From Selaginella moellendorffii (taxonomy: Eukaryota; Plantae; Lycopodiophyta), in contig NW_003314336.1 of the NCBI RefSeq assembly GCF_000143415.4, positions 237,296 to 301,295 on the forward strand: 64,000 nucleotides of DNA. The letters run 5' to 3'. Below the pieces are notes generated by a model that was not told the DNA's origin, did no database searches, and saw only the letters and a list, made by a program, of their open reading frames with translations. A program made the position numbers and the translations under genes. Positions 3,976 to 61,571 of the stretch are shown in pieces. The first letter of the stretch is position 1. Every line of letters begins with the position of its first letter.

Positions 3976-3999
3976 AAGCTCTATTTCGTTAAAGTGGGA
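3976..3999 (+). repeat. Left TIR, copy 1
   Basis: Reverse complement of 18663-18686. Confidence 0.95.
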
Positions 4000-4417
4000 A
4001 TTGTCATTATCCCACTTGTAAAATAAGGTTTCCAAACCTTTATATAGTATATAAATATAACAAAATTCAACTGCATTGAGGCACATGCCATTTTATTTTA
4101 AACAAGGAAATGTCTACTCAATCACTTCTCCTCCCCCTGCCACTGCTTCACCTCACTCTTCTCCTTATCATCGTCGTCTAATTTCTTTCCATCCTTTTAA
4201 TATTGGCTCAGTTGCTCCAAGACTAGGTGGAGCCCAAGTCCCCATTCAATCTTTACTTTCCCCTTATTAATAAAACAACTTCGTAGACTTCCAATAACAT
4301 GCTGTAACACTTCTAGTATAATGCAAATCCTCTCAAAGAATTGTCTTTTAATATTAATACAATGGCATGGAACCCCATGCCATAATAAGTTACATTTTTA
4401 AATAAATACATGCCATC

Positions 4418-7400
4418 TCAGACTGTTATTTTTTGCCTCCAACGCCTATACAATAATCTTGGAATTTCATCACTCTCCACACTATCAGGATTTAAACCCA
4501 ATAGTAATGCCATCTCTTCTCTAATACGTCCACGCTCATGTTCAGTGGTCGAAGAACCCATCCGGTTGAGCAGATTATGGAGATGCGGATAGTGCTTGGC
4601 TAGACAATATACATGCCATAAATGATGATTGGTGTCTGTCCGATCAAATGGCTTCTGATATACCGTTCCATTTGCCATTTGGTTGATTTCTGCAGCCACC
4701 TCCTGGACTGGCCGGTTCTCTATCACCATCGCTCCAAGCCGTTTTGCAAGGTCCCCCAGAACATACGGTTTCTTCTCCCTAGTTTCCATACTGCAATAGA
4801 TGGGGTGCATTGCATATGTGTGTGTGTTCGCTGCAGTTTTAATCGGCGAGTCATCGATGATGAGGATTTCACTTGACCTAGCAGTCCGGTTCATCACTAC
4901 AACCTCTGCCTTGACGAAGATGGGCTTGCTACCCCTCACATGGACCATAGTCAAGCAATCCTTCTGCGTTAGGAGAAAGTCAAATGGTAATATTACTCGC
5001 GTTGATCGTGCATCATCTGTAGCAACGTTAATGCATTGTGGCGCATCATGGATGTCCAAACTCCCAATTGCAAATTGAACCCGGCCCTCTGTTTTAAGTG
5101 TCGTATGGTCATTATTAGATCCCGCAGTTTCTCCCGTGTGATTAATGTGAATCTGTCTCTTTTGACCAACTTGCGACCGCAGGCTTTGGAGGGTGCAGTG
5201 ACATTCGAGGATGAGCCATGCTCATGGGAGAAAAGGACACCGTTCAGATCAAAAACGATACAGTACCTTCGCCGTGACTCTGAAATGAAATGCGTCAGCA
5301 TAAAAAATGGTACAAGTCAATTTTACCATCTACAATATTAGCGAATGGTGCTCCCGATGGTTGTTGAGAGGGTTTTGGTCGAGGAAACGTGAAGGGCAGA
5401 AATACTCTCCTCTGCAATGTGGGGTCAATCGCATCCGATGGCGTGTGGGCACATGCCATTTCAGCTGTAGACTCTGGTACAACTGGCTCAACAGTGGCAT
5501 GGGGTGGTTCCGATGGCGTGTGATCACACGCCATTTCAGCTTGTGCCTCCGTTGGCAAAGTGGACATGACCGAACAAGCAGCAGGGGCGGTGTAGGGAGG
5601 TTCCAACGGCGCGTAGTCAGACGATTGGGCACACGTTGAGTCTGTTGGAAATGAGGATACGACCGGCTCGGCGGCTGGGGCGGCCTCATGCAGGTCCAAT
5701 GGCGCCTGGTCACCGTCAGTTAGATACGTGGACAAGATTGACTCAGTGGTATGGGCAGCATCAAGTGGAGCGTAGTCAGCTTGCTTGGCGTTGATATGGA
5801 TAGTAGCCTCCACTAGCTCTGATGACTCTTGCAGGCAAGTAGAGTCCACTGGCGGATCCATATGCATGTCCAAATATCTCCCTTCGATTGAGATGGTATC
5901 CTCCCTACTGGCTACTAAAAACAAACTCATTAGCACATTGAATCGACTATACTATATTTACCATCAACTGCTATAGGACCGATATCACTTGGGCGCACTA
6001 CTGATTCTAAAGGATTGGACATACGTTTTGACCCTTGCTTGGCACTATCCTTCCTCGACACTAAAGGCTAGAGTTTGTATCTTAATTCAATTGAATAATC
6101 TCTACTTACCATTTGCTCTGCGACCTACATGGACAATGTTAAAAATGGTAAAAGGTTAGGAATGGATGTACTATTATTTACCTGATGGTTTGTTTTGTAT
6201 GACCTTCCTCCGCTGCTCTTTGGCCACCTCAGGCTGGCCATCGTCGTCATCATCGTCGTCGTCGTTATTGTGATCATCACCATTGTGAGGACCATCCAAG
6301 TCCTCTTCGTCCTCCTTTTCTTCGTCCTCCTCTTCTTTGTCCTCCTCTTCTTTGTCCTCCTCTTCGTCCTTCTGCTCTTCCTGCTCATTATCTTTCTCTG
6401 GCTCCTCATCCCCCTCCTGCATTTCTTCCATAGGCTGCTCAGGCTGGATGGCTTGTTCTTCCAGGACCATCTTGGGAAAATCATCTGGCCGAGTCTCCAT
6501 CTCAAAATACAAGACATCCATAGCCTGTTTTAGTGCGTGACCTAGGACCGTATCCTCACCCGACTGTCTTAACATGGTTTTTGCACGTTCTTGCACCCTT
6601 CGAAGACGACGAGATGAGAAAAACGTGGCCTTGACTTGAAAAGCATCCCTCATCTATTGTACCTCTCCATTGAGATTGGGGAAGGGGAGTCCGCCATAGG
6701 AATCTGAGTCAGGAGGTGGTGACTAGCTGCTTTCACTTAGCCCTTGATCTGCAATGAATGGCATGAGCACACACGCCATAACCGCGAGGCATTACCTATC
6801 ATCTTTTCGTTGCCCTTCTTCCTTTTCGAATCAAACGCCTCTGATCCCGACGACTGTCCAACGTGCTTTCGCTTTTTATGACCACTGTCAATTTGAGCTT
6901 GGCTGGTGCTTGCCTGTTTTGCCTTTGAAGAAGTGTCTCCTGCAAGGAATGGCATGAGACCACACGCCATTGCAAATATAATTTGTACCTCCTTTTCTCC
7001 TATTGCTTGTCTGTTTGTCCTTCTTCGACGTGCCACCAGTGCGCTTTTCAGTCCTCGTGTCTGAATATTCACAACGATCTATAATCAAAATGGCGTGAGG
7101 CCTCACGTGACCTTACCTTGTGCAGGTTGTGAGCTCGGCCCAACATGGGTATCTTCAACAGTAGCTGTTAACGCCGTTTCAGCATCTGGGGGTGGCCACG
7201 CTCCTGCATACATAGCTTGTGAGATAACATTTAAACTTAAAGTGCGTACTCACCAGGTTCGCAGAGAAGATACTGTTTTTCTTTGGCAATTGTAATTATA
7301 TGCTCCATTGAAGTCACCTCTTCAATGGAGTTTGTCACCGCAACACACGGGACACCCTTGAGTAGTGCGGCTCGAAAGAATAGTCCGCTGCAGTTGTACT

Positions 7401-10032
7401 CGACAACGCATTTGCCCTTGGAGTCGGAAGCAGGTGACCCACCCGCTATTGCGTTGAAGACCTGCACCTGGAGCTTTCTTTGGATTTGAAAGCTCCATAG
7501 CTGTCTTCAGTTCCTCAGGCACGGGTAAATTGACCTCCCTCAGATCAATTCAATCGGCCTTGTCGAACGAAGCTGGGAAGTCACTCCAGTCCCACTCTGC
7601 TGCAGGACCAATAACAAGGGCAAGTGTGAAGATGCGGACATTCGTCGGTATCTTCTTCTTAGCCATTATCCCATGGATCTCCCGCATCTCCTTGCCTTTC
7701 AACCGAGCCTTCACCTCGTTCAAGGCCTTCCAGAACTTGTGATAGGATTCGGAGTCGTAGATCATATAGTGGACTGAAGATTCCACCTCCGCAAGTCCCA
7801 CCATTAAGTCAATGATGGAGCTGACTTCGTCTGCATGAGTGATCTCCTCGTTTGTGAAGTCCATCACACAAAAGATGTTCTTGACCTGCTCATCTCCGCG
7901 GGAAACGATGTTCCTCCACCTTTGATCCTCATCCGAATTCACGTATACCCGGTAAGGTTCTCGATAGGCCTCTGCTGCGGGGTCGAGCTGTTTCTGAAGC
8001 CGGCAGTCGACATCCCTCTTAATGAAATTTGGATACTGATCCAACTTCTCAGCTTTACTTTTCGTGGCATCCCGCAGCAGATCGATGAACTTGGGGGCCC
8101 CCTTCACGTACTCGTCGATGTCTTCATTTGACAACTCCAGCGCTTCCATCATCTCTTGCGTGGTGTCGATGCTCACCCTCTCCACGGCCACTTGCTCGAA
8201 GATCCAATCCTTCAATAGCGCATGAGCTCTCAGAGTCGTGTACAAGTCCTCGTATGTCACAATATGGCCGGGAGTCATTTTGGTCTTGTTGAAGACTACC
8301 TCACCACGTTGAAGAGCATTAGCCACTGTCAGAAGGTCGTCATCGTCTAGAGACCGCGAGAAACGCAAGGCGTTGAGCTTCAAATCATTGGGCTTCCGGC
8401 TGTCCTCCACACCCATTGAGTTTAGCAACTCCCCGTCATGGTACTTCCTCAGCACATCTACCCATTTGTCAAAAACAACTTTTGTCGCGAGTAGAATGTT
8501 ATGGATGCTGAGTGTGTCATTGACCCCCAGTGTTTTCGAGAGAAGACTCGAGAATTCCTGCAATGGAAATGGCGTGAGGCCACATGCTATGCCACATGCA
8601 ACGAGGCTTATCTGCCAGGCGCTAGTTGCTAGTGCACGTCCTTGTCCTGGTTTTTGTGGCTTCTTCAGTTGAACCCAGAGCTTCCGTGTTCGTGCCAATG
8701 TCTCGTGCAGACCCGATTTGTAGCACGTTTCTTGCTTGACATTCTGTGCGTGGGAGATGTATATGATAGATCGGAGGGGCGAGTTGCCTTTTATCAGGCG
8801 GACAACTCTTGTCTTGAAGACTTTCTTCACCTCCTCGCCCACCATAATATCCACAACTATCTCTTGCATTGCCAAGCTAGAATGCTGCCCGGAGACGGCA
8901 TAGAACCGGATGTTCTGATCGTCCAACACCTTCCTATTGATCAAGTCTGGAAACCTCGTCTCGCCCTTCATTGTTCGGTAGTAGGGGATCACGTCTGCGA
9001 TGTCGGGTGTTACTGGACTTGCCAGCATCTTCTGCTTCAGTTTCTCCACCCACTCATCAGATACTAGCCTGTGGTTGTATTTGCTTTGGATGTTGATACG
9101 GCTCATGTCAATTGTATATACTTTGTTGGAATAGTAACAAGTACTATTATCTGCGACGATTTTTGCTACCTCTTCTTGCTCTTTCTGCTCTTTGCGGCTC
9201 TTCTTTTTGGTGGGTGTAGTGTTCGAACCCGAGGCAATGGCATCACCGAGTAGCTTCTTTTTTGGAGCAGGAGAGTCGGACGTCGGCTTGAGCTTGACCA
9301 CCCTTTTCTGCTTCGGGGTAGTTTCCAAATCGACCCCCTTCCCCTTCGCTTCGCGAACTGGAGGCACTCTCAACGACTCAATGTTGGAATATAGTTTTTG
9401 AACATCGCCGTAGGTGAGGTCCGTGGATTCCATGTGATCTTCATAGACCCGCAGCGTCTTTGAAATTGTGGGCCTCCTAGACAACCTCTCCCTAGCTCCC
9501 TCTAGGAATTCCTCATAGCCACTGCCCCCCTCCGGGAAGCCGCTAGGATGTGCAAGGTGGATCTTGAAGGCGGACGCTGTCTCTACCACAAGTGCCAGTC
9601 CATATTCTTGCATGGAACTGCATGGAGTGTCTGTCACTTGGATGAGGATCCCCATGCATTCTTTTCTCCCACCATCTGTGTTGTACAGCCTCAGATCCTC
9701 GCCTTCCATCCCGAAAGTCCAACTGGTGAGCTCCTCCCCCTTCTCTGCATCCACATTGACAGTGGCTGGAAGAAGAACACAATTCCTCGCCTGTTCAGAA
9801 ATGCACAACAATTAGAGCTGACAGATGAAAAGCTAGCAGCTGGAAATAACGTGAGGCCACACGCCATTCACCACTGCATCAGATGTCTTGAGGCTGCATC
9901 CTAAGATGGCGTGAGGCTACACGCCATCTGTAACCGGACTGCACTCGAGAGCCCAATCGGTGCATGCCAATGTTGCTACTGAATGGCATGTGGCCTCATG
10001 CCATTTTCTACTTGGCCTAAAAGACTTACCAT
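4418..10032 (-). pseudogene. Multi-exon cargo gene, copy 1 (ParB-like, MTase-like, acidic/Pro-rich, FCP1-type HAD phosphatase)
   Basis: ATG at 10032-10030. GT-AG introns at 9791-10029, 8558-8611 (donor mutated to AT here), 7204-7253, 7079-7116, 6940-6988, 6749-6795, 6125-6181, 6061-6109, 5915-5961, 5280-5326 join the ORF-track pieces in frame. Copy-specific stops (7550, ~6725, ~6655) and frameshifts (~7450, ~5001). Confidence 0.75.
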
Positions 10033-10239
10033 TTGAAGCCGAATGGAGGCGTGACAATCAAGGCCAGACTTGCTGGCGAATGTGCACTGTGTGTGCAGCG
10101 GATTGTAGCAGCAAGGCTACTCTGCCACTTACAGTTGGAGAGTGGCGCTGAAATCTCCCGGGACGCCAAGTGGGCTGCGTGTGGGTGGCGGAGTGGGCGG
10201 CGGAGTTGGCGACGAAGTTACAAACTGGGTGTGTCTTGA

Positions 10240-10402
10240 AGTGGACGCCGATGCACACGAGCGGGATGCGAGTGCGAGTGTGATGCAAGCGCGAGTGGAC
10301 GCCGATGCACACGAGAAACCTGTAGAGAAGGTAGATGAGCGCGAATGTGAGCGTGATCGCGAGTGGGAGCACAATGCGAGCGCGAGTGTGCGAGCGCGAG
10401 TA
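10240..10402. repeat. CG-rich GCGAG(C/T)G-type low-complexity repeats upstream of the cargo gene
   Basis: Direct inspection; length differs among the three copies. Confidence 0.7.
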
Positions 10403-12673
10403 CGAAGCAAAATGCAAAACCTAACCTCACACACGCGAAATGTCACGACGGTTGGTAATCCCGCCACGTCATCATTCCTCGGACTTGGGCGCCACCATTA
10501 ATTTCTGGATCGCCGCGCGCATGCATGCACGTGAAATCCAAAAGAAATCCGCAACGTCATCATTCCTCAGACTGCATGCACGCAAAATATCATTTAATAC
10601 CCTCGCTATATTTATACCATGCATGATTGGATATTCCAAAGCATCTTGTATTTCCAAAAATGCCAGATGTTCAGCTAAATAAAGAATGGTATACAAAAAA
10701 TCCCAAAAAATGCACCAAAAAATGCTCGGTGTCATCTGGCGTAATCTCTTGAATGGCGTGGGGCCGCATGCCATTTTTAGGGGCACATAGGAGTATATTC
10801 CTAGAATATTCTGACATGCGCGAGATTTTTTTGAGTTTTTTGGAGATCCAACCGTTAGATCGCTAAACATATATGTACATTACCCCAATCCCAAAGGGAT
10901 CAAAACAACATTGAGAGCGCACTCTCGAAGAAACTAGTGAAACTATGAGCGCGAACGCCCGGCGCTGCTCTTGGGCCGTCCACCTCCCAGGTGACTCCAC
11001 CGCGGAGCTTGAAGCCACCTGCTTCGCCTCGCCACTCCTCCACTCGGTCACAATGATGTCAAGCCGGACGAACACCATGTCGATCTAGCTCGACGTCGTC
11101 GCAGCCAAGCAGTCCAACTCGAGCACGATGACCCGGCATCGCTCATGGGTCACTCGCCTCCAAGGTGATTCCACTGCACAAGCTGAAGCCACCTGTTACG
11201 CCCCAAGATGTGATGCTATGTCTTGGAGCGCCTACCTCCCCAGTGTACTTCCAGCACTAAGTCGGTGCCCATTGCGAACAAACTCCAAGGCGTAGAACAA
11301 GCAAGGTGTGAGCCTCCTCCAGCTCTAGACTAGAGCGTGCTACCTTGCCTCCCACACTAGACAAGTGCGCTGGCCCCCTTCAATGATATACGAGCCCCCA
11401 TTGCCGGCATCGCGACAATCACAAGACTTGCAAGCCTCCGCGAACCTCCTCAAAGGACTAGCCCTGAAGCAAGAACCATGTGGGATCCCCTCCGCGAGCA
11501 AACCAACTTGGCCATCCGCCACTGGCCCCCTTTGTGACAGCACTTCCCTGTCACTAGATCCAAAAATGCGCCCATAGTGTCTTCCACGTCCATCCACCAC
11601 AGACACTTCGCTATGTCGGGATGTCGTCCTGAACTGTCCTCCACCAGTCAACAAAGTTCCCATGACTTGGTCGTGTTTCCACGACTCAAGTCGCCAAGAA
11701 CCTCCGACACATGCAGCTTCACGCTCCCCGTACCTCAGTCGCCACCTTGCATGGCCCGACCTAAGGCGAGAAATCCCACTCGAAGCTGCGAGACCAGCAA
11801 CCGTCGCGTTTCCACCATGTTGCTGCCGTGCCAACCACATGCAACGAAGATCCCTGACACTTAGAGTGGCCGGATCAAAGATCGCGCCGCCACCCTGAGT
11901 CCTGCCCTAACCGTAGTTAGGGCAAAAGCCAGCCAAGAACCCTAACCCTAGCCACGAATTAGGGCAGGTGAGAACTCTGAGACCGTGAAGAATTTTTGCC
12001 TGCGCTTCTGGGAGGGTGTGAGGCTCCCTCCCAGCTATCCCCCTGTGAATTTTTGTGGAAAAATTCCAAGCCGTTCAGGAGTTATGAGCTCCCAAAAAAC
12101 TTGAAACCATGAGAAGCGAAAAAAGAAGAGGAGGAGAGGAGAGCGTCCAGATCTGCGTGTTGCTGCTGCAGCCGTGGTGTTCCTAACTGCCCTCTCCACT
12201 CCTCCAAATCTCTGAGCCCCGAAAAACCCTAGCCGCCGCCGAAGAGACCTAAAAACAGCAGCGACCTAGGTCCAACCGTTAGATCGCAACTAGATTTTAC
12301 AGAATGGTATACAATGTCTTTCTTGATGACCCTGCAAAGAAGCATCTCGATCGGACACCACATAAGACCACACGAGCCTTACAATGTTTCAGGGGCATTT
12401 GCCATAGATCCGACCGTTATTTTGCTCCAAGATTTTACAGTTTGGTGTGCATTGACCTTTCCATCGAAACTGCAAAGGGACATCACAATCAGATGTGGGA
12501 TCACAAGAAACTAACTTCACTAACTCTGGTTTCACCAAGATCTACGTAAGGAGTTATGAAATGAAAGGACCCTCTCTATTGAAATGTGTTTATGGTCCTA
12601 GGGGCATTGTGACATATCGAAGGATTTTGCATCAAGTTTTGTATTTGCATGTTTATCAAGCTACTGAATTGCT

Positions 12674-12697
12674 AAACCCTAAACCCTAAACCCTAAA
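12674..12697. repeat. Plant telomere-type (AAACCCT)3 / telo-box in the central spacer
   Basis: AAACCCTAAACCCTAAACCCTAAA; also 32631-32654; a single unit in copy 3 (~60097). Confidence 0.8.
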
Positions 12698-13499
12698 CAT
12701 GTGGCAAATGCTGCGTGAAGAAAGATGCCCTTTCTGGGCAAATGCTGTAAGAGGCAGATGCCGAGCAGATGTATCTCAGGCTAGCGAAGGGGACAAACGA
12801 AAACTAGCTATAAACATGATGGGATGCAAATAGATTACTAGGCTGGTCTTGCAAAAATCAAAAACCATAATTGAAAACATTGAAAATGCAAAAAGAAAGG
12901 TTTATAATATTTTTAAATTTTAAGCAATCAAAGGAATGTAAGTAGGGCATGTGTTTGTAAGTTTAAAAATGCCTCAACCACTTAAATTCCCAAGTAAATA
13001 AAGCTGTTTCTATTTTTGGTACAGATAAACTTTATAGTGTGTGGGCTCATGCAATTTTGAACCCAATTTTGAAAATGCACCAAAAAATGCTCGAGTAGCA
13101 TTATTCTTTGAATGACGTGTGGCCTTATATTGCCATAAATGGACGTACACACACAGCATAATTATTCCTTTACACGGCGAATAATCTTGGCGCGGATCGC
13201 TGATATGGCATGGCAAAGTTCGAATCACTCACATGGCACAACTGGATCGAGGCAAGGATATGATGTGACAAAGTTCAACCTCCGACAGCAAAGTCTAGAA
13301 GCTACTCAGTTTGAAATTTGTCAGAGGAATCATAAGATCTGGTTTGTCAGAGGATTTGATGTGACGTTCAAGCGTGTGTTATTTTTGAATTCTCGAACTC
13401 ATTCCTAGGTCTATCATTTTTGTGCACCGTGTTCTTGGTTCCGCTGAGCGCAGTGAGCGCTGCTTGTGTAAGCGGTGTTGTGAGCTGTGGTTTATGCGT

Positions 13500-13635
13500 C
13501 TACGAGCGGTTGCGGCATTGTGAGCGCCATTGCGAGCGGCAGTTTATGCGAGTGGCAGTTTGTGCGAGCGGCACTACGAGCAGTTGCGGTGTTGCGAGCG
13601 GCGCTACGAGTAGTTGCGGTGTTGCGAGCGGCACT
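13500..13635. repeat. CG-rich ~30-bp tandem repeats upstream of the transposase
   Basis: GCGAGCGGCGCTACGAGYAGTTGCGGTGTT-like units; also ~33487-33620 and ~60903-61035. Confidence 0.75.
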
Positions 13636-13998
13636 GTCTTTGGTGTGGCTACCGCTTCCTCTTGATATTCGGCACTTGTGCTTCCTGGTATGTTCACCAT
13701 GGAATGGCTTAGGACCACATTTAGAAATGGCATGAGGCCACATGCCATCTTAGGCCCTTGCAATTTCATGGCTAGCGTATTGTCATGTATGTTTTTACTT
13801 GCCTGCAACTGTGTGTATATCAAGATAGCATGAGGCCTCATGCCAATTTTGTGAATGCGAAATTTCACGTGGGTGTCAATAGCATGTTTGAATAATGGCA
13901 TGTGGCCTCATGCTATTGAGGTTGTTTGGTATGTTATGATTTAGGCCATTCTCCAATCATTTTTTGTATGGTCTTAACTTCTTTTCTGCACTTTCAGA

Positions 13999-16900
13999 AT
14001 GGCCTTCAGGGTTGGGGAAAAGGTTTACATTTTGAATGGTGGGAAGAGAGTTGCAAAAGGGACCCTTGTGTCTATGGATCGGAACTTTGTTATACACTGT
14101 CAAAGGCTTGGGGAAGGCAATGCTGCTGTATCAATAGAGACTGTCTTCGATGGGAATGTGGTCGTTATTGAACGAGGAGAGATGGTCGTCGGGGTAAATG
14201 TTGTTGTTGCCTTGAAAAATCTTCAGAAGAAAGCAGATGTTGGGGACAGCGCAAGTGCGACGCATGTTCCCTCCGTGGATCTTAAGAACCGTGCTACATG
14301 GATTCAGGCAAAGGTGTTTCTAAACAACCCCGAAGGGGAGGTGGTAGCTGAGGGCTTAGCCACAGTTGTCGATCCAAGAGATGCGGTTGCTAATCAAGAA
14401 TTGGGCTGGGATGATATTGGAGTTGCGATTTTAGAGGTTGTTGACACAGAAGAAAATAGTCTGACTATTGGAAGCATTGTGCGGTGGAAATTGAGGCACT
14501 TAGTGTTTGAGAATGTGAAGGATTCACAATCAAACACCACTACAATTGATGACAAAACATCTCTTCATGGGAAAAGAAAGTACACCTTCCTAAAGCGTAG
14601 CCAAAGGGATCTGAGCAACGAACCGAAAAGGCAGAAAATGGCGATGGAGGTTCGAATGGTCTCGACAGTTGCTTGTTGCAAGAGGAGGTGCTGTCAACAT
14701 GCTGATTGGGATGCTATTGAAGAGGAGAAAGCAAGATACAAGACATTGTCCTGGAAGGCAGCTCGCAATTTTGTGTATGAGGCATTACGGTCATCTGTTG
14801 ATGCTTCAGAACATCAGGTGGGGGGCATGGTCTTCCAGAGGGGTTTGGTCTGCATGAAGGCATGGAGAATCATTTATGGAGACCCTCGAACCACATTCTA
14901 CAGAATCAAAACTGAGTTCGAGGAACAAAGGGTTCAATAGGCAGTCCATGGGAACGACGGTACGCACAAAACCAGGGGTCATGTTGTATATGGAGAGGCA
15001 ATCTTCAAGAGGTTTGTCGAGACATGTAGCGAGCAGCAACCACATAAAACCCGCCTCTTGGAAGATGGAACACGAGACACCCAACGAGTTCTCCCTTCCA
15101 TGTATACCAAGGGGGCCATATTGGAAGATGTGAATCGGGAACTCCAGAGTAATGGCTACAGGAAGCTGAGCCAATCTAGATTTAGTAGATTGTGGAGCAA
15201 CAGGTTCAAGGATGTGAGTATAGGAAAGTACTCCAGCTTTTCAAAGTGTGACGAGTGCACTGCTATCAAAATGGCTTTGTCGAAGAATTCTTGCAGCGCT
15301 CAAGAGCGAGAGACGTTGGTTAGAAGGCGGCTCGACCACAACATCGAGCAGAGAAGCTGCAGGACTGCATATTATCATAACAGGATTCTCTCCATGGAGA
15401 GACCTGACTCTTACCTCTACATCATCCACGACAAAATGGACCAGAAAAAGACGTGCTTACCTTGACTCAATCCTGCCCCCAAGGCAATCTCTTCATCCAT
15501 GCAGCTGCCTGTGTCTCTGTTTGGCATAATCGCTCATGGGCATGGTGCCCAGAACTATGGGAACTTCTTTGTACCTCTATGTGCAAACATGATGATTGCG
15601 TCCCTAGCAAAACACTTAAGGTCTCTGCAAAGTGCGCAGACTGAGCTGAACGGCCAACCCTTGCATAAGGCCCTTGTCGATCGAACCCCATACAGGGTTC
15701 AGCTAGAGGAGGAGCAAAGGCTTGCAGTATCGCGTAGGGCCCCATGCCATCCCAGTGAATATGTTGGCCGTCAGATTGTAGGGTTATCACGTGAGGCCTC
15801 ATGCCATTCCGACGAGGCTGGTCGCCCGGTGAATGCACAGCCTCATCCAAACGAAGCAGAATCTCAAGGAAGTTCTTGCGGCCGATGTGGCCTTCCACCC
15901 TATCTTCTGCTCCAAACAGACAATGCTGGCAGTGAGAACAAAAACATGTACGTCTTCGCGTACTTGGCGATGCTTGTTGCCAAAGGCATATTTGAAACGG
16001 TTACACTTGGCTTTCTCATGGTTGGGCACACTCATGAAGACGTCGATGCCATGTTCAGTCACCTGGCAGAGTCCCTCCGGCGATCCAATGTCCTCACCCT
16101 CCCACAACTCTACGATGAATTCCAAAATTGCATCAAAGGCACTGTTGAAGCTGCACTTCTGACAGAGGTTCCAGACTTTAAGGGGTTTGTAAGAGGCTAC
16201 ATCAAGGACGGATCTGAAACGCTGATTGGCCACTCCAAGCCTCTTCAATTTCATTTCAGCATGCGTGACAGTGCTCCAATGATGAGGTACAAGATGAGAG
16301 AATGGGACACAATGTGGCTGCCAGTGGACGGCATTGAACTCTTCAAGAGAGATCCCATAACTGGGGAACCTATGATTCCTCAGGGTTCCCCACGGCCGAT
16401 GCACCCGGATGGACTCAAAGACCAGGAAAGTATAGTGGCCGGGATTAGACAGCATATTGCCTTCTGAAAGAGGGGGTTGGTGTTTAGTGGAGAATCCTAT
16501 TTTCAGAGGTGCAAGCCTTTGCTTGAATACTGGGAGAAGATTATATCTGCTATCCAAAATGGGCCGGTTGTATATGAAGAATTGGAAGAGTCCTTTTGGC
16601 CAGAACCCAGAGCACCAGATAGTAGCGGAACAATGTCCTCTGGAAATGCAGTGACAGATAACGATGTTGAGGATCACTATTGTGGGCCGAGGAACAAGAA
16701 GCCGGATTCAGCATTCAATCCAGTACAGGTCTACAAAGGAATGGTCGTGCTTGTCAGACCCAGTAATAAAAAACAAATGATATGGGTGGGGCACTGCATC
16801 ACTGATGCAGAGGAGGACGCGGAAACTAACTCCTTCAATGTAACTATGGAGTGGTTCAAGCCAAGTTCCGGATATACGAAGGATTGCCTAGAAAAGAGAT

Positions 16901-17128
16901 GGGTGCTGAATCCAAGGGATCTCAGCATGAGCATATCGGTGGATAATGTTGTGCATGGTTTGATGCGGAAGCAGAGTGCCACCATCACCTTGCCAGACCA
17001 TGCAAGAGATGCAGCAAGAGCATTCATAACCCGGGTTCAAGGTGAGATTCATTAATATTCCTTTACTAAGTTTCTAATGTATTTTATTTCAAGGTGAACA
17101 ATCCGAATCTGAATCAGAGGAGGCGTGA
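13999..17128 (+). pseudogene. Sola-like DDD transposase, copy 1 (three premature stops)
   Basis: ORFs 13999-14940, 15058-15465, 15499-16467 and 16477-17055 share one frame. Motifs IIHDKMDQKK, LQTDNAGSENKN, GFLMVGHTHEDVDAMFS. Probable last intron 17042-17093 adds GEQSESESEEA*. Confidence 0.85.
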
Positions 17129-17768
17129 TGGCATGTGGCCTTACGCCATTCCTAGGTGAGATGATACAAATAACAAGTATAAATTCTTAGTTGTTCTAGC
17201 AAATCTTACTTAAAGTTCAAGGTGAACAAGCCGAATATGAATTCATCGGATTGTTATAACAAATTGCGAGGTGATGGCATGAGGCGATACGCCATTTGAG
17301 AGTGGTAGCCATTCCTATATGAGGTGAGTGAAATATTTATTAGAAATACCTCATTCAATTGTGCACTTCTAAGTCTTGGTCCACTCAGTACTGTTTGCAT
17401 GTTTCTATTTTAATTCTTTCTCTAAAATGTTATTTAGCATGTGGCTTCATGCCATTGCTCTCCACAATCATGCATTGAATTTTTCTATCCTTGCATAATA
17501 CTTCTCCATATATATAGCATGTGCGCACATGTGATATGGTTCATTAGGCCTGATATAGTGTGTGAGGTAAAACAAAGATGATATGACATATGCATTTACC
17601 AATCACACGTGCATAAATCTAATAATATGGCGTGTGGCCCATATTAATGGCACATAAACCCATATTGTGGGCTTACGTGCTTTATGTACCATCATTCCCT
17701 TGCAGTGTGTGTGTTGGTTTCCTTTTATAACACAACGAACTCCATATTTTAGGGTGAAGAGCGTTCTC

Positions 17769-18026
17769 ATGGCAAGCACAAAATCTGTAAGTGAGGCAGA
17801 AAAGGAGACGGAGAAGGAGATAGGTGAAGATGTAGAATATATAAGTCTTCCAAACTCCCCGTACTATACTCCAGGTGATCATTTTTCTAAACAAACGGCA
17901 ACATTAACAACTATCGAGAGCGCCCCCGTAACGTCAGAGACAACAATCCAAAGCAAAACAACTGACTCGGAGAAGGATGATAGTACCGCTGAGAGTACCA
18001 AAAAGGAGGTGTCCACTAGCGCTTAG
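17769..18026 (+). CDS. Short Ser/Thr/Glu-rich ORF or downstream exon, function unknown
   Basis: MASTKSVSEAEKE..., preceded by a TTTTAG acceptor-like site; open in copy 2 (37972-38229). Confidence 0.3.
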   Translation: MASTKSVSEAEKETEKEIGEDVEYISLPNSPYYTPGDHFSKQTATLTTIESAPVTSETTIQSKTTDSEKDDSTAESTKKEVSTSA

Positions 18027-18662
18027 GCTTATAATGGCGTGTGCCCTCATGCCATTTACTTGATCACCAAATACCTTTTTCCCTTTGCACTAGTATATCT
18101 TAATACTAGTCTGAGAAATAGAATGGCATGTGCCCTCAGGCCTTTTACTAAATCACCTTTGAAAGAAATGCAAGCCTCTATGTCGTAAAAAAAAGGTACT
18201 AGAGAAATTCCTTAATAATATGAATGTTATTTAGTTTCATGAAAATACACTAAGGGTCAAATGAGTTAAATGACTTCTCCAGACTAGCAATGCCTCTTGC
18301 TACACCTTCACAATTAGATTTGTTATAAAAAGATAACATTGAATAATATCTAAATGTTCTCACCATTAAGTTATATGTCTGGCTAATAGGAATGACGTTC
18401 ATCTTGGAAAGCTCACCACACGCTCAATGAACAAACAAATAGTGTGTGCGCGCATGCCATCGCTCTTCTTTAGCTTCAGATTCGGCTTGTTCACCTTGAC
18501 AATGAGATTTATTATACAACCAGATGGACTCAGTCTGGACACAAAGTCATTGCGCTAGTCACCATGCCCCAGATATGTCTAGCCCCTGGACAAAAAACAT
18601 ATAATTTCACGTCATTTTCAAATACTTGAAAATTTGTACCTAGTCCCATTTTACTGAATAAA

Positions 18663-18686
18663 TCCCACTTTAACGAAATAGAGCTT
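18663..18686 (-). repeat. Right TIR, copy 1
   Basis: TCCCACTTTAACGAAATAGAGCTT. Confidence 0.95.
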
Positions 18687-24629: not shown

Positions 24630-25425
24630 TGTCATGAATGTGATTTCAGGTATCGAAAGTTACCTGTTGGCTAGTCTTTACAGACACTTTTACCTTACTG
24701 CCATGATGGCAGGAGGTCAGTATTGTTGGTTCCCTTTATTGGCCTGGCCCCCTTGTTCAAGAGTTAGTGAACTAAACTTTGCATCTGTACTTGGCCAGAT
24801 GAGCATAAGGACGGAATTCCTAAATGTTTATTTAGCCAAACATATTTGGCTTGGCTTTTTAGTTCTCTTTTGCTTTGTCTTGCACTGGCTTAACAAGAAC
24901 CCTTGCGTATTGAGATTAGTCCCTCAATATCGTTGGATGATAGCTTACCTTGTCTGCCAAACACCCTCGTTATCATGCCCTTAAAGCTCTATTTCGTTAA
25001 AGTGGGAATTGTCATTATCCCACTTGTAAAATAAGGTTTCCAAACCTTTATATAGTATATAAATATAACAAAATTCAACTGCATTGTGGCACATGCCATT
25101 TTATTTTAAACAAGGAAATGTCTACTCAATCACTTCTCCTCCCCCTGCCACTGCTTCACCTCTCTCTTCTCCTTGTCATCGTCGTCCAATTTCTTTCCAT
25201 CCTTTTAATATTGGCTCAGTTGCTCCGAGTCTAGGTGGAGCCCAAGTCCCCATTCAATCTTTACTTTCCCCTTATTAATAAAACAACTTCGTAGACTTCC
25301 AATAACATGCTGTAACACTTCTAGTATAATGCAAATCCTCTCAAAGAATTGTCTTTTAATATTAATACAATGGCATGGAACCCCATGCCATAATAAGTTA
25401 CATTTTTAAATAAATACATGCCATC

Positions 25426-28400
25426 TCAGACTGTTATTTTTTGCCTCCAACGCCTATACAATAATCTTGGAATTTCATCACTCTCCACACTATCAGGATT
25501 TAAACCCAATAGTAATGCCATCTCTTCTCTAATACGTCCACGCTCATGTTCAGTGGTCGAAGAACCCATCCGGTTGAGAAGATTATGGAGATGCGGATAG
25601 TGCTTGGCTAGACAATATACATGCCATAAATGATGACTGGTGTCTGTCCGATCAAATGGCTTCTGATATACCGTTCCATCTGCCATTTGGTTGATTTCTG
25701 CAGCCACCTCCTGGACTGGCCGGTTCTCTATCACCATCGCTTCAAGCCGTTTTGCAAGGTCCCCCAGAACATACGGTTTCTTCTCCCTAGTTTCCATACT
25801 GCAAGAGATGTGGTGCACTGCATATGTGTGCGTGTTCGCTGCAGTTTTAATCGGCGAGTCATCGATGATGAGGATTTCACTTGACCTAGCAGTCCGGTTC
25901 ATCACTACAGCCTCTGCCTTGACGAAGATGGGCTTGCTACCCCTCACATGGACCATAGTCAAGCAATCCTCCTGCGTTAGGAGAAAGTCAAATGGTAATA
26001 TTACTCGCGTCTGATCGTGCATCATCTGTAGCAACGTTAATGCATTGTGGCGCATCATGGATGTCCAAACTCCCAATTGCAAATTGAACCCTGCCCTTTG
26101 TTTTAAGTGTCGCATGGTCATTATTAGATCCCGCAGTTTCTCCCGTGTGATTAATGTGAATCTGTCTCTTTTGACCAACTTGCGACCGCAGGCTTTGGAG
26201 GGTGCAGTGACATTCGAGGACGAGCCACGCTCATGGGAGAAAAGGACACCGTTCAGATCAAAAACGATATAGTACTTTCGCCGTGACTCTGAAATGAAAT
26301 GCGTCAGCATAAAAAATGGTACAAGTCAATTTTACCATCTACAATATTAGCGAATGGTGCTCCCGATGGTCGTTCAGAGGGTTTTGGTCGAGGAAACGTG
26401 AAGGGCGGAAATACTCTCCTCTGCAATGTGGGGTCAATCGCATCCGATGGCGTGTGGGCACATGCCATTTCAGCTGTAGACTCTGGTACAACTGGCTCAA
26501 CAGTGGCATGGGGTGGTTCCGATGGCGTGTGATCACACGCCATTTCAGCTGGTGCCTCCGTTGGCAAAGTGGACATGACCGAACAGGCAGCAGGGGCGGT
26601 GTAGGGAGGTTCCAACGGCGCGTAGTCAGACGATTGGGCACACGTTGGAAATGAGGATACGACCGGCTCGGCGGCTGGGGCGGCCTCATGCGGGTCCAAT
26701 GGCGCCTGGTCACCGTCAGTTGGATACGTGGACAAGATTGACTTAGTGGTATGGGCAGCATCAAGTGGAGCGTGGTCAGCTTGCTTGGCGTTGATATGGA
26801 TAGTAGCCTCCACCAGCTCTGATGACTCTTGCAGGCAAGTAGAGTCCACTGGTGGATCCATATGCATGTCCAAATATCTCCCTTCGATTGAGATGGTATC
26901 CTCCCGTGCTACTAAAAACAAACTCATTAGCACATTGAATCGACTATACTGTATTTACCATCAACTGCTATTGAGGAACTAGGACCGATATCACTTGGGC
27001 GCACTGCTGATTCTGAAGGATTGGACATATGTTTCGACCCTTGCTTGGCACTATCCTTCCTCGACACTAAAGGCTAGAGTTTGTATCTTAATTCAACTGA
27101 ATAATCTCTACTTACCATTTCTTCTGCGACCTACATGGACAATGTTAGAAATGGTAAAAGGTTAGGAATGGATGTACTATTATTTACCTGATGGTTTGTC
27201 TTGTATGACCTTCCTCCGCTGCTCTTTGGCCACCTCAGGCTGGCCATCGTCGTCATCATCGTCATCGTCGTTATTGTGATCGTCACCATTGTGAGGACCA
27301 TCCAAGTCCTCTTCGTCCTCCTCTTCTTCATCCTCCTCTTCTTCGTCCTCCTCTTCTTTGTCCTCCTCTTCGTCCTTCTGCTCTTCCTGCTCATTATCTT
27401 TCTCTGGCTCCTCATCCCCCTCTTGCATTTCTTCCATAGGCTGCTCAGGCTGGATTGCTTGTTTTTCCAGGACCATCTTGGAAAAATCATCTGGCCGAGT
27501 CTCCATCTCAAAATACAAGACATCCATATCCTGTTTTAGTGCGTGACCTAGGACCGTATCCTCACCCGACTGTCTTAACATGGTTTCTGCACGTTCTTGC
27601 ACCCTTTGAAGACGACGAGATGAGAAAAACGTGGCCCTGACTTGAAAAGCATCCCTCATCCATTGTACCTCTCCATTGAGATTGGGGAAGGGGAGTCCGC
27701 CATAGGAATCTGAGTCAGAAGGTGGTGACTGGCTCCTTTCACTCAGCCCTTGATCTGCAATGAATGGCATGAGCACACACGCCATAACTGCGAGGCATTA
27801 CCTATCATCTTTTCGTTGCCCTTCTTCCTTTTCGAATCAAACGCCTCTGATCCCGACGACTGTCCAACGTGCTTTCGCTTTTTATGACCACTGTCAGTTT
27901 GAGCTTGGCTGGTGCTTGCCTGTTTTGCCTTTGAAGAAGTGTCTCCTGCAAGGAATGGCATGAGACCACACGCCATTGCAAATATAATTTGTACCTCCTT
28001 TTTTCCTATTGCTTGTCTGTTTGTCCTTCTTCGACGCGACACCAGTGCGCTTTTCAGTCCTCGTGTCTGAATATTCACAACGATCTATAATCAAAATGGC
28101 GTGAGGCCTCACGTGACCTTACCTTGTGCAAGTTGTGACCTCGGCCTAACATCAGTAGCTGTTAACGCCGTTTCAGCATCTGGGGGTGGCCACGCTCCTG
28201 CATACATAGCTTGTGAGATAACATTTAAACTTAAAGTGCGTACTCACCAGGTTCGTAGAGAAGATACTGTTTTTCTTTGGCAACTGTAATTATATGCTCC
28301 ATTGAAGTCACCTCTTCAATGGAGTTTGTCACCGCAACACATGGGACACCCTTGAGTAGTGCGGCTCGAAAGAATAGTCCGCCGCAGTTGTACTCGACAA

Positions 28401-31031
28401 CGCATTTGCCCTTGGAGTCACCCGCTATTGCGTTGAAGACCCAGCTGAGCATTTCCCATGCTGCACCTGGAGCTTTCTTTGGATTCGAAAGCTCCATAGC
28501 CGTCTTCAGTTCCTCAGGCACGGGTAAATTGACCTCCCTCAGATCAATTCGATCGGCTTTGTTGAACGAAGCTGGGAAGTCACTCCAGTCCCACTCTGCT
28601 GCAGGACCAATAACAAGGGCGACTGTGAAGATGCGGACATTCGTCGGTATCTTCTTCTTAGCCATTATCCCATGGATCTCCCGCATCTCCTGGCCTTTCA
28701 ACCGAGCCTTCACCTCGTTCAAGGCCTTCCAGAACTTGTGATAGGATTCGGAGTCGTAGATCATATAGTGGACTGAAGATTCCACCTCCGCAAGTCCCAC
28801 CATTAAGTCAATGATGGAGCTGACTTCGTCTGCATGAGTGATCTCCTCGTTTGTGAAGTCCATCACACAAAAGATGTTCTTGACCTGCTCATCTCTGCGG
28901 GAAACGATGCTCCTCCACCTTTGATCCTCATCCGAATTCACGTATACCCGGTAAGGTTCTCGATAGGCCTCTGCTGCGGGGTCGAGCTGTTTCTAAAGCC
29001 GGCAGTTGACATCCCTCTTAATGAAATTTGGATACTGATCCAACTTCTCAGCTTTACTTTTCGTGGCATCCCGCAGCAGATCGATGAACTTGGGGGCCCC
29101 CTTCACGTACTCGTCGATGTCTTCATTTGACAAGTCCAGCTCTTCCATCATCTCTTGCATGGTGTTGATGCTCACCCTCGCCACGGCCACTTGCTCGAAG
29201 ATCCAATCCTTCAATAGCGCACAAGCTCTCAGAGTCGTGCACAAGTCCTCGTATGTCACAATATGGCCGGGAGTCATTTTGGTCTTGTTGAAGACTACCT
29301 CACCACGTAGAAGAGCATTAGCCACTGTCAGAAGGTTGTCGTCGTCTAGAGACCGTGAGAAACGCAAGGCGTTGAGCTTCAAATCATTGGGCTTCCGGCC
29401 GTCCTCCACACCCATTGAGTTTAGCAACTCCCCGTCATGGTACCTCCTTAGCACATCTACCCATTTGTCAAAAACAACTTTTGTCGCGAGTAGAATGTTA
29501 TGGATGCTGAGTGTGTCATTGACCCCCAGTGTTTTCGAGAGAAGACTCAAGAATTCCTGCAATGGAAATGGCGTGAGGCCACATGCTATGCCACATGCAA
29601 CGAGGCTTACCTGCCAGGCGCTAGTTGCTAGTGCACGTCCTTGTCCTGGTTTTTGTGGCTTCTTCAGTTGAACCCAGAGCTTCCGTGTTCGTGCCAATGT
29701 CTCGTGCAGACCCGATTTGTAGCACGTTTCTTGCTTGACATTCTGCGCGTGGGAGATGTATATGATAGATCGGAGGGGCGAGTTGCCTTTTATCAGGCGG
29801 ACAACTCTTGTCTTGAAGACTTTCTTCACCTCCTCGCCCACCATAATATCCACAACTATCTGTTGCATCGCCAAGCTAGAATGCTGCCCGGAGATGGCAT
29901 AGAACCGGATGTTCTGATCGTCCAACACCTTCCTATTGATCAAGTCTGGAAACCTCGTCTCGCCCTTCATTGTTCGGTAGTAGGGGATCACGTCTGCGAT
30001 GTCGGGTGTTACTGGACTTGCCAGCATCTTCTGCTTCAGTTTCTCCACCCACTCATCAGATACTAGCCTGTGGTTGTATTTGCTTTGGATCTCGATACGG
30101 CTCACGTCGATTGTATATACTTTGTTGGAATAGTAACAAGTACTATTATCTGCGACGATTTTTGCTGCCTCTTCTTGCTCTTTTTGCTCTTTGCGGCTCT
30201 TCTTTTTGGTGGGTGTAGTGTTCGAACCCGAGGCAATGGCATCACCGAGTAGCTTCTTTTTTGGAGCAGCAGAGTCAGACGTCGGCTTGAGCTTGACCAC
30301 CCTTTTCTGCTTCGGGGTAGTTTCCAGATCGACCCCCTTCCCCTTCGCTTCGCAAACTGGAGGCACTCTCAACGGCTCAATGTTGGAATATAGTTTTTGA
30401 ACATCGCCGTAGGTGAGGTCCGTGGATTCCATGTGATCTTCATAGACCCGCAGCGTCTTTGAAATTGTGGGCCTCCTGGACAACCTCTCTCTAGCTCCCT
30501 CTAGGAATTCCTCATAGCCGCTGCCCCCCTCCGGGAAGCTGCTAGGATGTGCAAGGTGGATCTTGAAGGCGGACGCTGTCTCTACCAGAAGTGCCAGTCC
30601 ATATTCTTGCATGGAACTGCATGGAGTGTCTGTCACTTGGATGAGGATCCCCATGCATTCTTTTCTCCCACCATCTGTGTTGTACAGCATCAGATCCTCG
30701 CCTTCCATCCCGAAAGTCCAACTGGTGAGCTCCTCCCCCTTCTCTGCATCCACATTGACAGTGGCTGGAAGAAGAACGCAATTCCTCGCCTGTTCAGAAA
30801 TGCACAACAATTAGAGCTGACAGATGAAAAGCTAGCAGCTGGAAATAACGTGAGGCCACACGCCATTCACCACTGCATCAGATGTCTTGAGGCTGCATCC
30901 TAAGATGGCGTGAGGCTACACGCCATCTGTAACCGGACTGCACTCGAGAGCCCAATCGGTGCATGCCAATGTTACTACTGAATGGCATGTGGCCTCATGC
31001 CATTTTCTACTTCGTCTAAAAGACTTACCAT
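25426..31031 (-). pseudogene. Multi-exon cargo gene, copy 2 (least damaged; premature TAG at 28993)
   Basis: Same exon structure as copy 1. FCP1-like exon intact (YIVFDLNGVLF...LGVWTS...ILIIDDSPIK). Confidence 0.8.
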
Positions 31032-33810: not shown

Positions 33811-34038
33811 GATGGCATGAGGCCTCATGCCATCTTTGGCCCCTGCTAGCCTATTGCCATATTCCTTTTGCCTTGCTGCAACTGTATATATTTTTGTATG
33901 GGTGACTAGTCACGTACACAAAAATATATACAGTTGCAACAAGGCAAAAGGAATATAGCAACAGGCTAACAGGGGCCAAAGATAGCATGAGGCCTCATGC
34001 CATTAGTGGTACCACTAATGGCATGAGGGCTCATGCCA
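33811..34038. repeat. Long fold-back palindrome flanked by 22-bp palindromes
   Basis: Arms ~90 bp centred on GTGACTAGTCAC (33902-33913), then CATTAGTGGTACCACTAATG. Confidence 0.9.
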
Positions 34039-34191
34039 ATTTTGTGAATGCGAAATTTCACGTGGGTGTCAATAGCATGTTTAAATAATGGCATGTGGCC
34101 TCATACTATTGAGGTTGTTTGGTATGTTATGATTTAGGCCATTCTCCAATCATTTTTTGTATGGTCTTAACTTCTTTTCTGCACTTTCAGA

Positions 34192-37100: not shown

Positions 37101-37333
37101 GAGATGGGTGCTGAATCCAAGGGATCCCAGCATGAGCATATCGGTGGATAATGTTGTGCATGGTTGGATGCGGAAGCAGAGTGCCACCATCACCTTGCCA
37201 GACCATGCAAGAGATGCAGCAAGAGCATTCATAACCCGGGTTCAAGGTGAGATTCATTAATATTCCTTTACTAAGTTTCTAATGTATTTTATTTCAAGGT
37301 GAACAATCCGAATCTGAATCAGAGGAGGCGTGA
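34192..37333 (+). pseudogene. Sola-like DDD transposase, copy 2 (stops at 34945 and 35080)
   Basis: Single frame 34192-37260 (1,022 codons); catalytic motifs intact; probable short last exon. Confidence 0.88.
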
Positions 37334-50758: not shown

Positions 50759-51600
50759 AAGCTCTATTTCGTTAAAGTGGGAATTGTCATTATCCCACTT
50801 GTAAAATAAGGTTTCCAAACCTTTATATAGTATATAAATATAACAAAATTCAACTGCATTGAGGCAAATGCCATTTTATTTTAAACAAGGAAATGTCTAC
50901 TCAATCACTTCTCCTCCCCCTGCCACTGCTTCACCTCTCTCTTCTCCTTGTCATCGTCGTCCAATTTCTTTCCATCCTTTTAATATTGGCTCAGTTGCTC
51001 CGAGTCTAGGTGGAGCCCAAGTCCCCATTCAATCTTTACTTTCCCCTTATTAATAAAACAACTTCGTAGACTTCCAATAACATGCTGTAACACTTCTAGT
51101 ATAATGCAAATCCTCTCAAAGAATTGTCTTTTAATATTATTACAATGGCATGGAACCCCATGCCATAATAAGTTACATTTTTAAATAAATACATGCCATC
51201 TCAGACTGTTATTTTTTGCCTCCAACGCCTATACAATAATCTTGGAATTTCATCACTCTCCACACTATTAGGATTTAAACCCAATAGTAATGCCATCTCT
51301 TCTCTAATACGTCCACGTTTATGTTCAGTGGTCGAAGAACCCATCCGGTTGAGCAGATTATAGAGATGCAGATAGTGCTTGGCTAGACAATATACATGCC
51401 ATAAATGATGACTGGTGTCTGTCCGATCAAATGGCTTCTGATATACTGTTCCATCTGCCATTTGGTTGATTTCTGCAGCCACCTCCTGGACTGGCCGGTT
51501 CTCTATCACCATCGCTCCAAGCCGTTTTGCAAGGTCCCCCAGAACATACGGTTTCTTCTCCCTAGTTTCCATACTGCAAGAGATGGGGTGCACTGCATAT

Positions 51601-61420: not shown

Positions 61421-61571
61421 TTTTGTGAATGCGAAATTCACGTGGGTATCAATAGCATGTTTGAATAATGGCATGTGGCCTCATGCTATTGAGGTTGTTT
61501 GGTATGTTATGATTTAGGCCATTCTCCAATCATTTTTTGTATGGTCTTAACTTCTTTTCTGCACTTTCAGA

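What the first reader, a model, noticed from the sequence alone, without database searches (positions are those of the whole stretch)
6749..10029. Tiny introns built around the palindrome
Introns 6749-6795 (47 nt), 6940-6988 (49 nt), 7079-7116 (38 nt) and 8558-8611 (54 nt) are little more than donor + 22-bp palindrome + acceptor, with the palindrome ending 9-11 nt before the 3' splice junction. Intron 9791-10029 holds three copies. Removing them restores one reading frame. Inference: introns let the element place binding sites within coding DNA, or the RNA hairpin controls splicing (autoregulation), or the motif spread in an introner-like way.
Basis: partly seen in the sequence, partly recalled or inferred. 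Interest (0 to 1): 0.8.

Follow-up and report, generated by a model that had tools for sequence, protein, structure and literature searches.

The report
Transposon palindrome doubles as intron branchpoint
A 14-kb jumping gene, probably of a plant, carries a 22-letter palindrome along its whole length, likely a landing site for its own ParB-like protein, and in four tiny predicted introns the palindrome likely also serves as the splicing branch point.

Summary
They lie in the accessory gene of a 14-15 kb TIR DNA transposon (DUF7869 transposase, 4-bp TSD; Sola-like), present three times in the window.

Corrections: intron 8558-8611 starts AT in this copy (GT in the other two). The five introns alone restore no frame. 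Five more tiny, palindrome-free introns are needed, and every copy is broken.

The motif is element-wide: all 71 strong sites lie inside the elements, and only 4 of 30 in copy 2 are coding. Its arms vary independently, as expected of a double-stranded DNA site rather than an RNA hairpin.

The 9-11 nt spacing has an explanation: the 3' arm places CTCAY at -16/-18, where 4 of 5 palindrome-free introns have their branch motif.

Introner spread fails: the 8558 intron position appears shared with 25-30% identical homologues, and the introns match only over palindrome and acceptor.

The host gene encodes a ParB/Srx-fold domain, a weakly methyltransferase-like part and an NIF domain. Best reading: VANC/TnpA-like self-recognition sites parked in introns. 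Splicing and binding remain untested; gene A was silent in the RNA runs.

The parts
3976..18686 (.). Copy 1 of the TIR DNA transposon (with a ~1.5-kb insertion at about 10700-12270 that the other copies lack)
   Evidence: 28-nt terminal inverted repeat 3975-4002/18660-18687; 95-99% identity to copies 2 and 3; ends read
24984..38889 (.). Copy 2, the most intact; flanked by a CTTA 4-bp target duplication
   Evidence: Filled site versus related empty site near 21257-21260
50759..64000 (.). Copy 3, interrupted at about 51600-53849, runs off the window
4421..10032 (-). Gene A (predicted 11 exons, about 1640 aa in copy 2): ParB/Srx-fold domain, helical domain, weakly methyltransferase-like domain, disordered region, NIF phosphatase-like domain; broken in copy 1
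9791..10029 (-). Intron 1 (239 nt, right after the ATG), three palindromes at 9846, 9906, 9983; its own branch motif CTAAT at -22 lies outside them
8612..9190 (-). ParB/Srx-fold domain at the end of exon 2
   Evidence: Model pLDDT 77.8; top 8 VIA rows all ParB/Srx fold, Z 9.8-6.3; Foldseek best hit Noc E=1e-4
8558..8611 (-). Intron 2 (54 nt, phase 0), palindrome 8569-8590, CTCAC at -18; donor is AT in this copy, GT in copies 2 and 3; position apparently shared with distant homologues
7204..7253 (-).
7079..7116 (-). Intron 4 (38 nt), palindrome 7090-7111, CTCAC at -18
6940..6988 (-). Intron 5 (49 nt), palindrome 6949-6970, CTCAT at -16
6749..6795 (-). Intron 6 (47 nt), palindrome 6758-6779, CTCAT at -16
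5280..6181 (-). Predicted introns 7-10, no palindrome: 6125-6181, 6061-6109, 5915-5961, 5280-5326 (47-57 nt); acceptors of 7-9 have alternatives
5438..5534 (.). Two palindromes inside a Pro/Ala-rich coding stretch of gene A
13688..13997 (+). Predicted 5'-UTR intron of the transposase with 3 palindromes (5 in copy 2, 4 in copy 3); indel breakpoints at palindrome centres and a fold-back duplication
13999..17055 (+). DUF7869 transposase (three internal stops in copy 1); two palindromes (15729, 15786) in its least conserved linker
   Evidence: Pfam E=3e-43; linker 5% identity to relatives against 36-69% in the next 75 residues
17128..18460 (.). Seven palindromes in the 3' non-coding region

Best explanation
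The 22-bp palindrome lies along the whole transposon, mostly outside coding DNA, and is likely a double-stranded DNA binding site for a dimeric protein of the element, most likely gene A's own ParB-fold product, while in the four tiny predicted introns its 3' arm likely doubles as the splicing branch point. Shown by sequence: element-restricted distribution, depletion in coding DNA, even spread, independent variation of the two arms, CTCAY at -16/-18, local gain and loss of sites through fold-back duplication and centre-to-centre deletion. Predicted: the ParB/Srx fold. Inferred: the element needs a site every 1-2 kb, so long genes carry sites in introns or in unconstrained linkers; a 38-54 nt intron has room for a 22-mer only if the motif also supplies the branch adenosine; the bound protein would load at these sites, possibly spread, and protect or activate its own family against host silencing, as VANC and TnpA do.
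For: Distribution: 71 of 71 sites over 15 bits lie inside the three copies (24, 30, 17); none lies in about 24 kb outside, where one 10.9-bit match occurs. 4 of 30 copy-2 sites are coding against 57.5% expected, P=7e-7; the largest gap is 1846 bp, P=0.048 to 0.0009 by cluster threshold. The two transposase sites fall in a linker with 5% identity to relatives. DNA-level constraint: arms pair no more than chance at the variable positions (13 of 30 vs 14.1; 10 of 30 vs 11.3). Half-site positions 5-6 read CA 34, CG 23, TG 1 of 60, where neutral CpG decay would give CA and TG alike. Sites differ between copies at 12 of 902 bases against 205 of 8059 in other non-coding DNA, P=0.02, biased by site selection. 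Branch point: 4 of 4 tiny palindrome introns have CTCAY at -16/-18, and 4 of 5 palindrome-free introns have CTVAY at -15 to -17 (0 of 200,000 shuffles reach 4). Random site, strand and place would give this at 7e-5, or 9e-4 if one of the two similar introns is dropped. In the long intron 1 the palindromes are not so placed. Protein: ParB/Srx fold, with ParB_N and DUF3723 look-alikes in the Atlas. Precedent: VANC21 binds motifs in introns, intergenic and terminal non-coding regions of its own transposon (PMC5735166, passages).
Against: No binding, methylation or splicing data. Three raw RNA-seq runs (about 12% of each read) had zero depth over 6420-9383 and no joint. Contigs of four runs guessed to be RNA cover up to 9533-10024 with intron 1 unspliced; they stop 5 nt short of the donor and share seven substitutions, so they probably come from another, truncated copy. 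No ParB-type HTH was shown: the helical domain against a ParB alignment gave probability under 1%, E 0.05-0.11. The family has invariant G-Q-H where the fetched ParBs have G-E/A-R-R. The methyltransferase likeness is weak (model pLDDT 45; Z up to 5.4; E 0.12 at best). The -15 to -18 window was set after looking, and three acceptors were chosen among alternatives. Sites are not independent, since some arose by local duplication. No related element's DNA could be fetched.
Confidence: 0.55

Rival explanations
1. The palindrome is a DNA site, but it is read by the transposase itself or by a host transcription factor, not by gene A; intron placement and branch-point use stay the same.
For: All distribution and constraint results are silent on who binds. 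A 2026 preprint reports sequence-specific activation by the AtMu1 transposase (10.64898/2026.08.24.746577; abstract and section 4 read). No HTH was shown in gene A.
Against: Sites are not concentrated at the termini, where that preprint places TnpA binding. They are absent from about 24 kb of flanking repeats, which a host factor's site need not be. Gene A carries a fold whose best-known members act at palindromic sites (function recalled).
Confidence: 0.2
2. The palindrome matters as an RNA hairpin that hides the branch adenosine and acceptor, limiting or auto-regulating splicing of gene A.
For: Introns 5 and 6 fold at -14.5 and -17.0 kcal/mol (z -3.0, -2.7) with the branch A fully paired, and the stem extends towards the acceptor.
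Against: Introns 2 and 4 fold no better than shuffles (z 0.68, -1.05), and the branch A of intron 2 is unpaired. The arms do not co-vary. Most sites lie outside tiny introns, in intergenic, terminal and opposite-strand positions.
Confidence: 0.12
3. The motif has no function; it multiplies by fold-back duplication and conversion, and survives only where coding and splicing tolerate it.
For: Site number differs among copies (3, 5, 4) through fold-back duplication and centre-to-centre deletion; intergenic sites share duplicated flanks.
Against: Dispersed sites with unrelated flanks keep T7 in 60 of 60 and C5 in 58 of 60 half-sites while position 6 varies freely. The spread is even, and four sites persist in coding DNA.
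Confidence: 0.09
4. The tiny introns are introner-like insertions of a palindromic mini-element.
For: Introns 5 and 6 match at 90% over 31 nt of palindrome plus acceptor (family D9); intron 2 has a 4-nt junction repeat.
Against: The 5' parts (5-21 nt) are unlike each other, there are no inverted ends, and junction repeats are 2 nt or less in three of four. Flanking direct repeats around sites are only slightly above chance (9 vs 6.9, 4 vs 2.1, 2 vs 0.7 of 30). All ten introns are present in all three copies. Nine of 11 homologues covering the region end in [W/F]-x-V and stop within 32 residues at the intron 2 position, with no motif-encoded peptide, so that position is probably older than the motif.
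Confidence: 0.04

Closest known systems
VANC/VANDAL anti-silencing system (Arabidopsis Mutator-like elements; PMC5735166, passages read)
   Same: Element-encoded accessory gene; family-specific motif concentrated in introns, intergenic and terminal non-coding DNA, including introns of the accessory gene itself; motif number changes through local repeats.
   Different: The VANC21 motif is a 9-bp non-palindromic word in same-orientation arrays. Here it is a 22-bp palindrome, often single, overlapping the predicted branch point, in a DUF7869 element. Gene A showed no Pfam match in its first 746 aa. Binding and demethylation are untested.
Spm TnpA and transposase-mediated self-activation (bioRxiv 10.64898/2026.08.24.746577, abstract, section 4 and one passage read)
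   Same: Family-specific motifs read by an element-encoded protein.
   Different: TnpA acts at the termini and derives from a transposase; here sites cover the interior, and the candidate reader has a ParB fold.
Bacterial ParB/Noc/KorB with palindromic sites (structures; mechanism recalled)
   Same: ParB/Srx N-terminal fold followed by a helical domain; many palindromic sites on the same DNA.
   Different: G-Q-H in place of the arginine patch, no HTH shown, no ParA found, eukaryotic intron-rich gene fused to methyltransferase-like and NIF parts.
Sola superfamily DNA transposons (PMC10741241, passages read; original 2009 paper not held)
   Same: TIRs, 4-bp TSD, three conserved aspartate motifs, large size; relatives in a liverwort, corals, a sponge and lancelets.
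   Different: Not compared with reference Sola sequences; I found no description of such an accessory gene or motif.
Introners (10.1101/2022.06.06.494994, passages read)
   Same: Several short introns share sequence.
   Different: Similarity does not reach both ends; no TIR/TSD pattern; one position appears ancient.
DUF3723 cargo of fungal Starships (10.1101/2021.12.13.472469, passages read)
   Same: Conserved accessory gene of giant eukaryotic elements; Atlas feature score 0.95 to the gene A domain.
   Different: Lead only, no alignment. That paper links DUF3723 to TIGR02168 segregation proteins; no held paper has both DUF3723 and ParB.

Membership tests
Sola DNA transposon | Terminal inverted repeats | tested here: met
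   28 nt, 96% complementary
Sola DNA transposon | 4-bp target site duplication | tested here: met
   CTTA on both sides of copy 2 versus the empty site; copy 1's flanks do not match each other; copy 3's right end is outside the window
Sola DNA transposon | DDD transposase related to reference Sola proteins | tested here: inconclusive
   Three aspartate motifs conserved in DUF7869 relatives; no Sola reference sequence available, paper not held
Introner | Similarity reaching both intron ends | tested here: not met
   5' parts unlike each other; criterion
Introner | TIR and/or TSD at intron ends | tested here: not met
   No inverted ends; junction repeats of 4, 2, 2 and 2 nt
Introner | New, polymorphic intron positions | tested here: inconclusive
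   Intron 2 position apparently shared with distant homologues; all introns present in 3 of 3 copies; no sister-family DNA for introns 4-6
VANC-type anti-silencing system | Family-specific motif enriched in the element's non-coding DNA, introns included | tested here: met
VANC-type anti-silencing system | Accessory protein binds the motif and hypomethylates the element in trans | not testable with these tools
   Needs EMSA/ChIP and methylomes
VANC-type anti-silencing system | Mutator-type host element | tested here: not met
   DUF7869 transposase and 4-bp TSD; Mutator TSDs are 7-12 bp
ParB/parS partition system | ParB/Srx N-terminal fold | tested here: met
   PadC Z 9.8, rmsd 3.0, 99 aligned; KorB Z 9.1, rmsd 2.7, 94 aligned; first non-ParB row Z 3.7; Noc E=1e-4
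ParB/parS partition system | GxxRxxA arginine patch for CTP (motif recalled) | tested here: not met
   Invariant G-Q-H in 12 of 12 rows versus G-E/A-R-R in 9 of 10 fetched ParB-like proteins
ParB/parS partition system | HTH DNA-binding domain after ParB-N | tested here: inconclusive
   Helical domain present but no significant profile match with a 5-row alignment
ParB/parS partition system | ParA ATPase partner | tested here: inconclusive
   None among 9 element ORFs scanned against Pfam; not every ORF was scanned
N4/N6 DNA methyltransferase (beta class) | SAM-binding Rossmann fold | tested here: inconclusive
   Atlas rank 10, 0.88, PF01555 on 39% of members; weak top fold hits are methyltransferases, low-confidence model
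N4/N6 DNA methyltransferase (beta class) | Catalytic [DNS]PP[YFW] motif (recalled) | tested here: not met
   Not present in exon 3, read by eye in the translations

The most novel reading that the evidence does not exclude
A eukaryotic cut-and-paste transposon has adopted a bacterial-style ParB/parS system. Its ParB-fold, methylase-like, phosphatase-fused protein loads at 22-bp palindromes spaced along the element and spreads to mark or shield its own family. The element fits those sites into 38-54 nt introns by making the site double as the branch point, which also couples the protein's own splicing to its binding site.
Probability: 0.3. Interest if true: 0.87.

Novelty: new variant of a known kind. 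Interest (0 to 1): 0.63.

Why it matters
It would extend transposon self-recognition systems (VANC, TnpA) to a third superfamily, with an unrelated, bacterial-type fold. It would also show one 22-bp sequence under dual DNA-binding and splicing constraint. A single base swap at the motif's variable A/T position should separate the two roles, so the idea is directly testable. The ParB-like reading may also apply to DUF3723, a common Starship cargo gene.

Tried and rejected
No whole genome is held, so genome-wide copy number and host introns could not be examined.

RNA: the run search listed no holder on record as RNA. I laid 8 of the 23 listed runs and saw no junction of gene A. Contig run X1 covers introns and intergenic DNA unspliced and behaves like DNA.

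Homologue searches: word-based searches for gene A found nothing. Locus scans of metagenome and viral contigs matched 66, 66 and 11 stretches, none confirmed. The genome-contig scan could not be built. PDB sequence searches and PHROGs gave nothing meaningful. Of the 15 HMMER hits, P0012 is a repeat that matched only through the intron peptide and was dropped.

Ideas tested and dropped: tandem exon duplication as the source of introns 4-6 is not supported (P=0.04, 0.96, 0.25). A ParB-type HTH was not detected. Rfam gave only chance-level hits. A first intron-chain script had a stopping error and was redone. No complex was predicted.

Earlier findings: three look-ups returned nothing.

Literature: searches found no paper describing a ParB-fold protein or dispersed palindromes in a Sola/DUF7869 element; the library lacks most subscription papers. 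PMC4738411 (passages) mentions ParB-HTH fused adenine methylases in chlorophytes and chytrids, not this element. Search 96 and PMC4007552 (passages) gave no usable host intron-size figure. No supplements were read.
Full report
Setting. The finding lies in a DNA transposon present three times in the window at 95-99% identity: 3976-18686, 24984-38889 and 50759 to the window end. It has 28-nt terminal inverted repeats. Copy 2 is flanked by CTTA on both sides where a related empty site has it once, a 4-bp target duplication; copy 1's flanks do not match each other. The plus-strand gene at 13999-17055 is a DUF7869 transposase with three conserved aspartate motifs. Its named relatives come from a liverwort, corals, a sponge and lancelets, and its unnamed closer relatives are about 40% identical. 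This fits the Sola superfamily as described in PMC10741241 (passages), but I could not compare it with reference Sola proteins. The host is probably a seed-free land plant; that is an inference, and no genome is held.

Observation. Intron 8558-8611 begins AT here but GT in copies 2 and 3. The five introns alone give no continuous frame in any copy, because all copies carry lesions and a palindrome-free intron at 7204-7253 is also needed. A chain search found that at least four more tiny introns join the gene to a downstream NIF-domain frame. With ten introns copy 2 encodes 1642 aa with one internal stop, and homologue P0013 has the same helical-to-NIF fusion in one ORF. So five of ten predicted introns carry the motif, and the five without it are as small (47-57 nt).

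Are the introns real? Intron 2 has protein support. Removing its 18-aa peptide raises the scores of the three homologues that span it (43 to 59, 39 to 52 and 34 to 46 bits). Nine of the 11 homologues covering the end of the upstream domain read [W/F]-x-V and stop within 32 residues at this position, as read-through of a GT donor would. P0007 and P0010 look like the spliced and unspliced forms of close relatives. The others rest on frame and splice signals only. RNA did not decide. Three raw RNA-seq runs had no depth over 6420-9383 and no joint. Contigs of four runs guessed to be RNA span intron 1 unspliced, but they end at 10024, short of the donor, with shared substitutions, probably from another truncated copy.

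The motif is element-wide and behaves like a DNA site. All 71 sites over 15 bits lie inside the copies, against 0.03 per shuffled window (matrix seeded from 13 sites). In copy 2, 4 of 30 are coding against 57.5% coding DNA (P=7e-7), and no gap exceeds 1846 bp (P=0.048-0.0009). The coding sites sit in a Pro/Ala-rich stretch and in the transposase's least conserved linker. Half-sites keep T7 (60 of 60), C5 (58) and T2 (58), while positions 6 and 9 vary, and the arms vary independently. CpG decay appears on one side only (CA 34, TG 1), which points to selection on C5, although locally duplicated sites are not independent. Sites multiply locally: the transposase's predicted 5' intron holds 3, 5 and 4 sites in the three copies, with breakpoints at palindrome centres and a fold-back duplication.

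Why 9-11 nt from the junction. In all four tiny introns the motif is oriented so that its 3' arm reads CTCAY with the A at -16 or -18. Four of the five palindrome-free introns have CTVAY at -15 to -17, and none of 200,000 shuffles reached four. A random site, strand and place would hit this window in all four at 7e-5, or 9e-4 if introns 5 and 6 count once. In the 239-nt intron, which has its own CTAAT at -22, the palindromes are not so placed. The window was defined after looking, and three acceptors had alternatives, so these P values are generous. The branch consensus itself is recalled. I infer that the palindrome supplies the branch point.

Rivals. An RNA hairpin hides the branch A in introns 5 and 6 (z about -3) but not convincingly in 2 and 4, and there is no covariation. 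Introner criteria are not met: the 5' parts are unlike each other, there are no inverted ends, and intron 2's position appears older than the motif. Exon duplication was not supported.

The candidate reader. The end of exon 2 folds (pLDDT 77.8) as a ParB/Srx domain: the top eight structural rows are all of that fold, Z 9.8-6.3, and the next is 3.7; Noc is the best Foldseek hit. The Atlas lists unnamed sponge and mollusc clusters, DUF3723 (0.95) and ParB_N (0.92). Against a simple ParB reading, G-Q-H replaces the arginine patch, and no HTH was detected in the following helical domain. The end of exon 3 is weakly N4/N6-methylase-like in the Atlas and in four fold searches of one low-confidence model, without the catalytic motif. 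That gene A binds the palindrome is therefore inference.

Comparison. It works most like VANC/VANDAL, whose motifs lie in introns, intergenic and terminal DNA of the cognate element (PMC5735166, passages), and like TnpA (preprint). It is a member of neither. Six searches found no description of this arrangement, within a library lacking most subscription papers.

Verdict. The feature is real. New variant of a known kind, interest 0.63; about 0.87 if binding by gene A is shown.

Noticed in passing
window 10096-10135: A 40-nt stretch upstream of gene A's start draws 100-240 RNA reads per run with loose ends on both sides. From recall it resembles large-subunit rRNA; Rfam did not confirm this.
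   Followed up: partly
window ~10700-12270: Insertion present only in copy 1; related, diverged sequence is abundant in RNA runs.
   Followed up: partly
window 18687 and 24983: Copy 1's right end and copy 2's left end sit at the same position of a flanking repeat, in opposite orientation; target preference or rearrangement.
   Followed up: no
window 51600-53849: Repeat insertion with an N gap interrupts copy 3's NIF exon.
   Followed up: no
window 23074-24378: Retrotransposon gag-protease-RT fragment between the copies.
   Followed up: no
window 5280-5326: The 3' end of palindrome-free intron 10 resembles a half-site plus acceptor, and introns 5 and 6 have inverted symmetry beyond the 22-mer; the palindrome may have arisen by fold-back of an intron end (speculation).
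   Followed up: no
window 8612-9190: Atlas links this ParB-fold domain to DUF3723, a Starship cargo family, and to sponge and mollusc clusters; no held paper has both DUF3723 and ParB.
   Followed up: partly
window 17658-18026: Short Ser/Thr/Glu-rich ORF among the 3' palindromes, no Pfam match; possibly an exon.
   Followed up: no
window 12672-12698 and 32629-32655: About four telomere-like CTAAACC repeats inside the element between its two genes.
   Followed up: no
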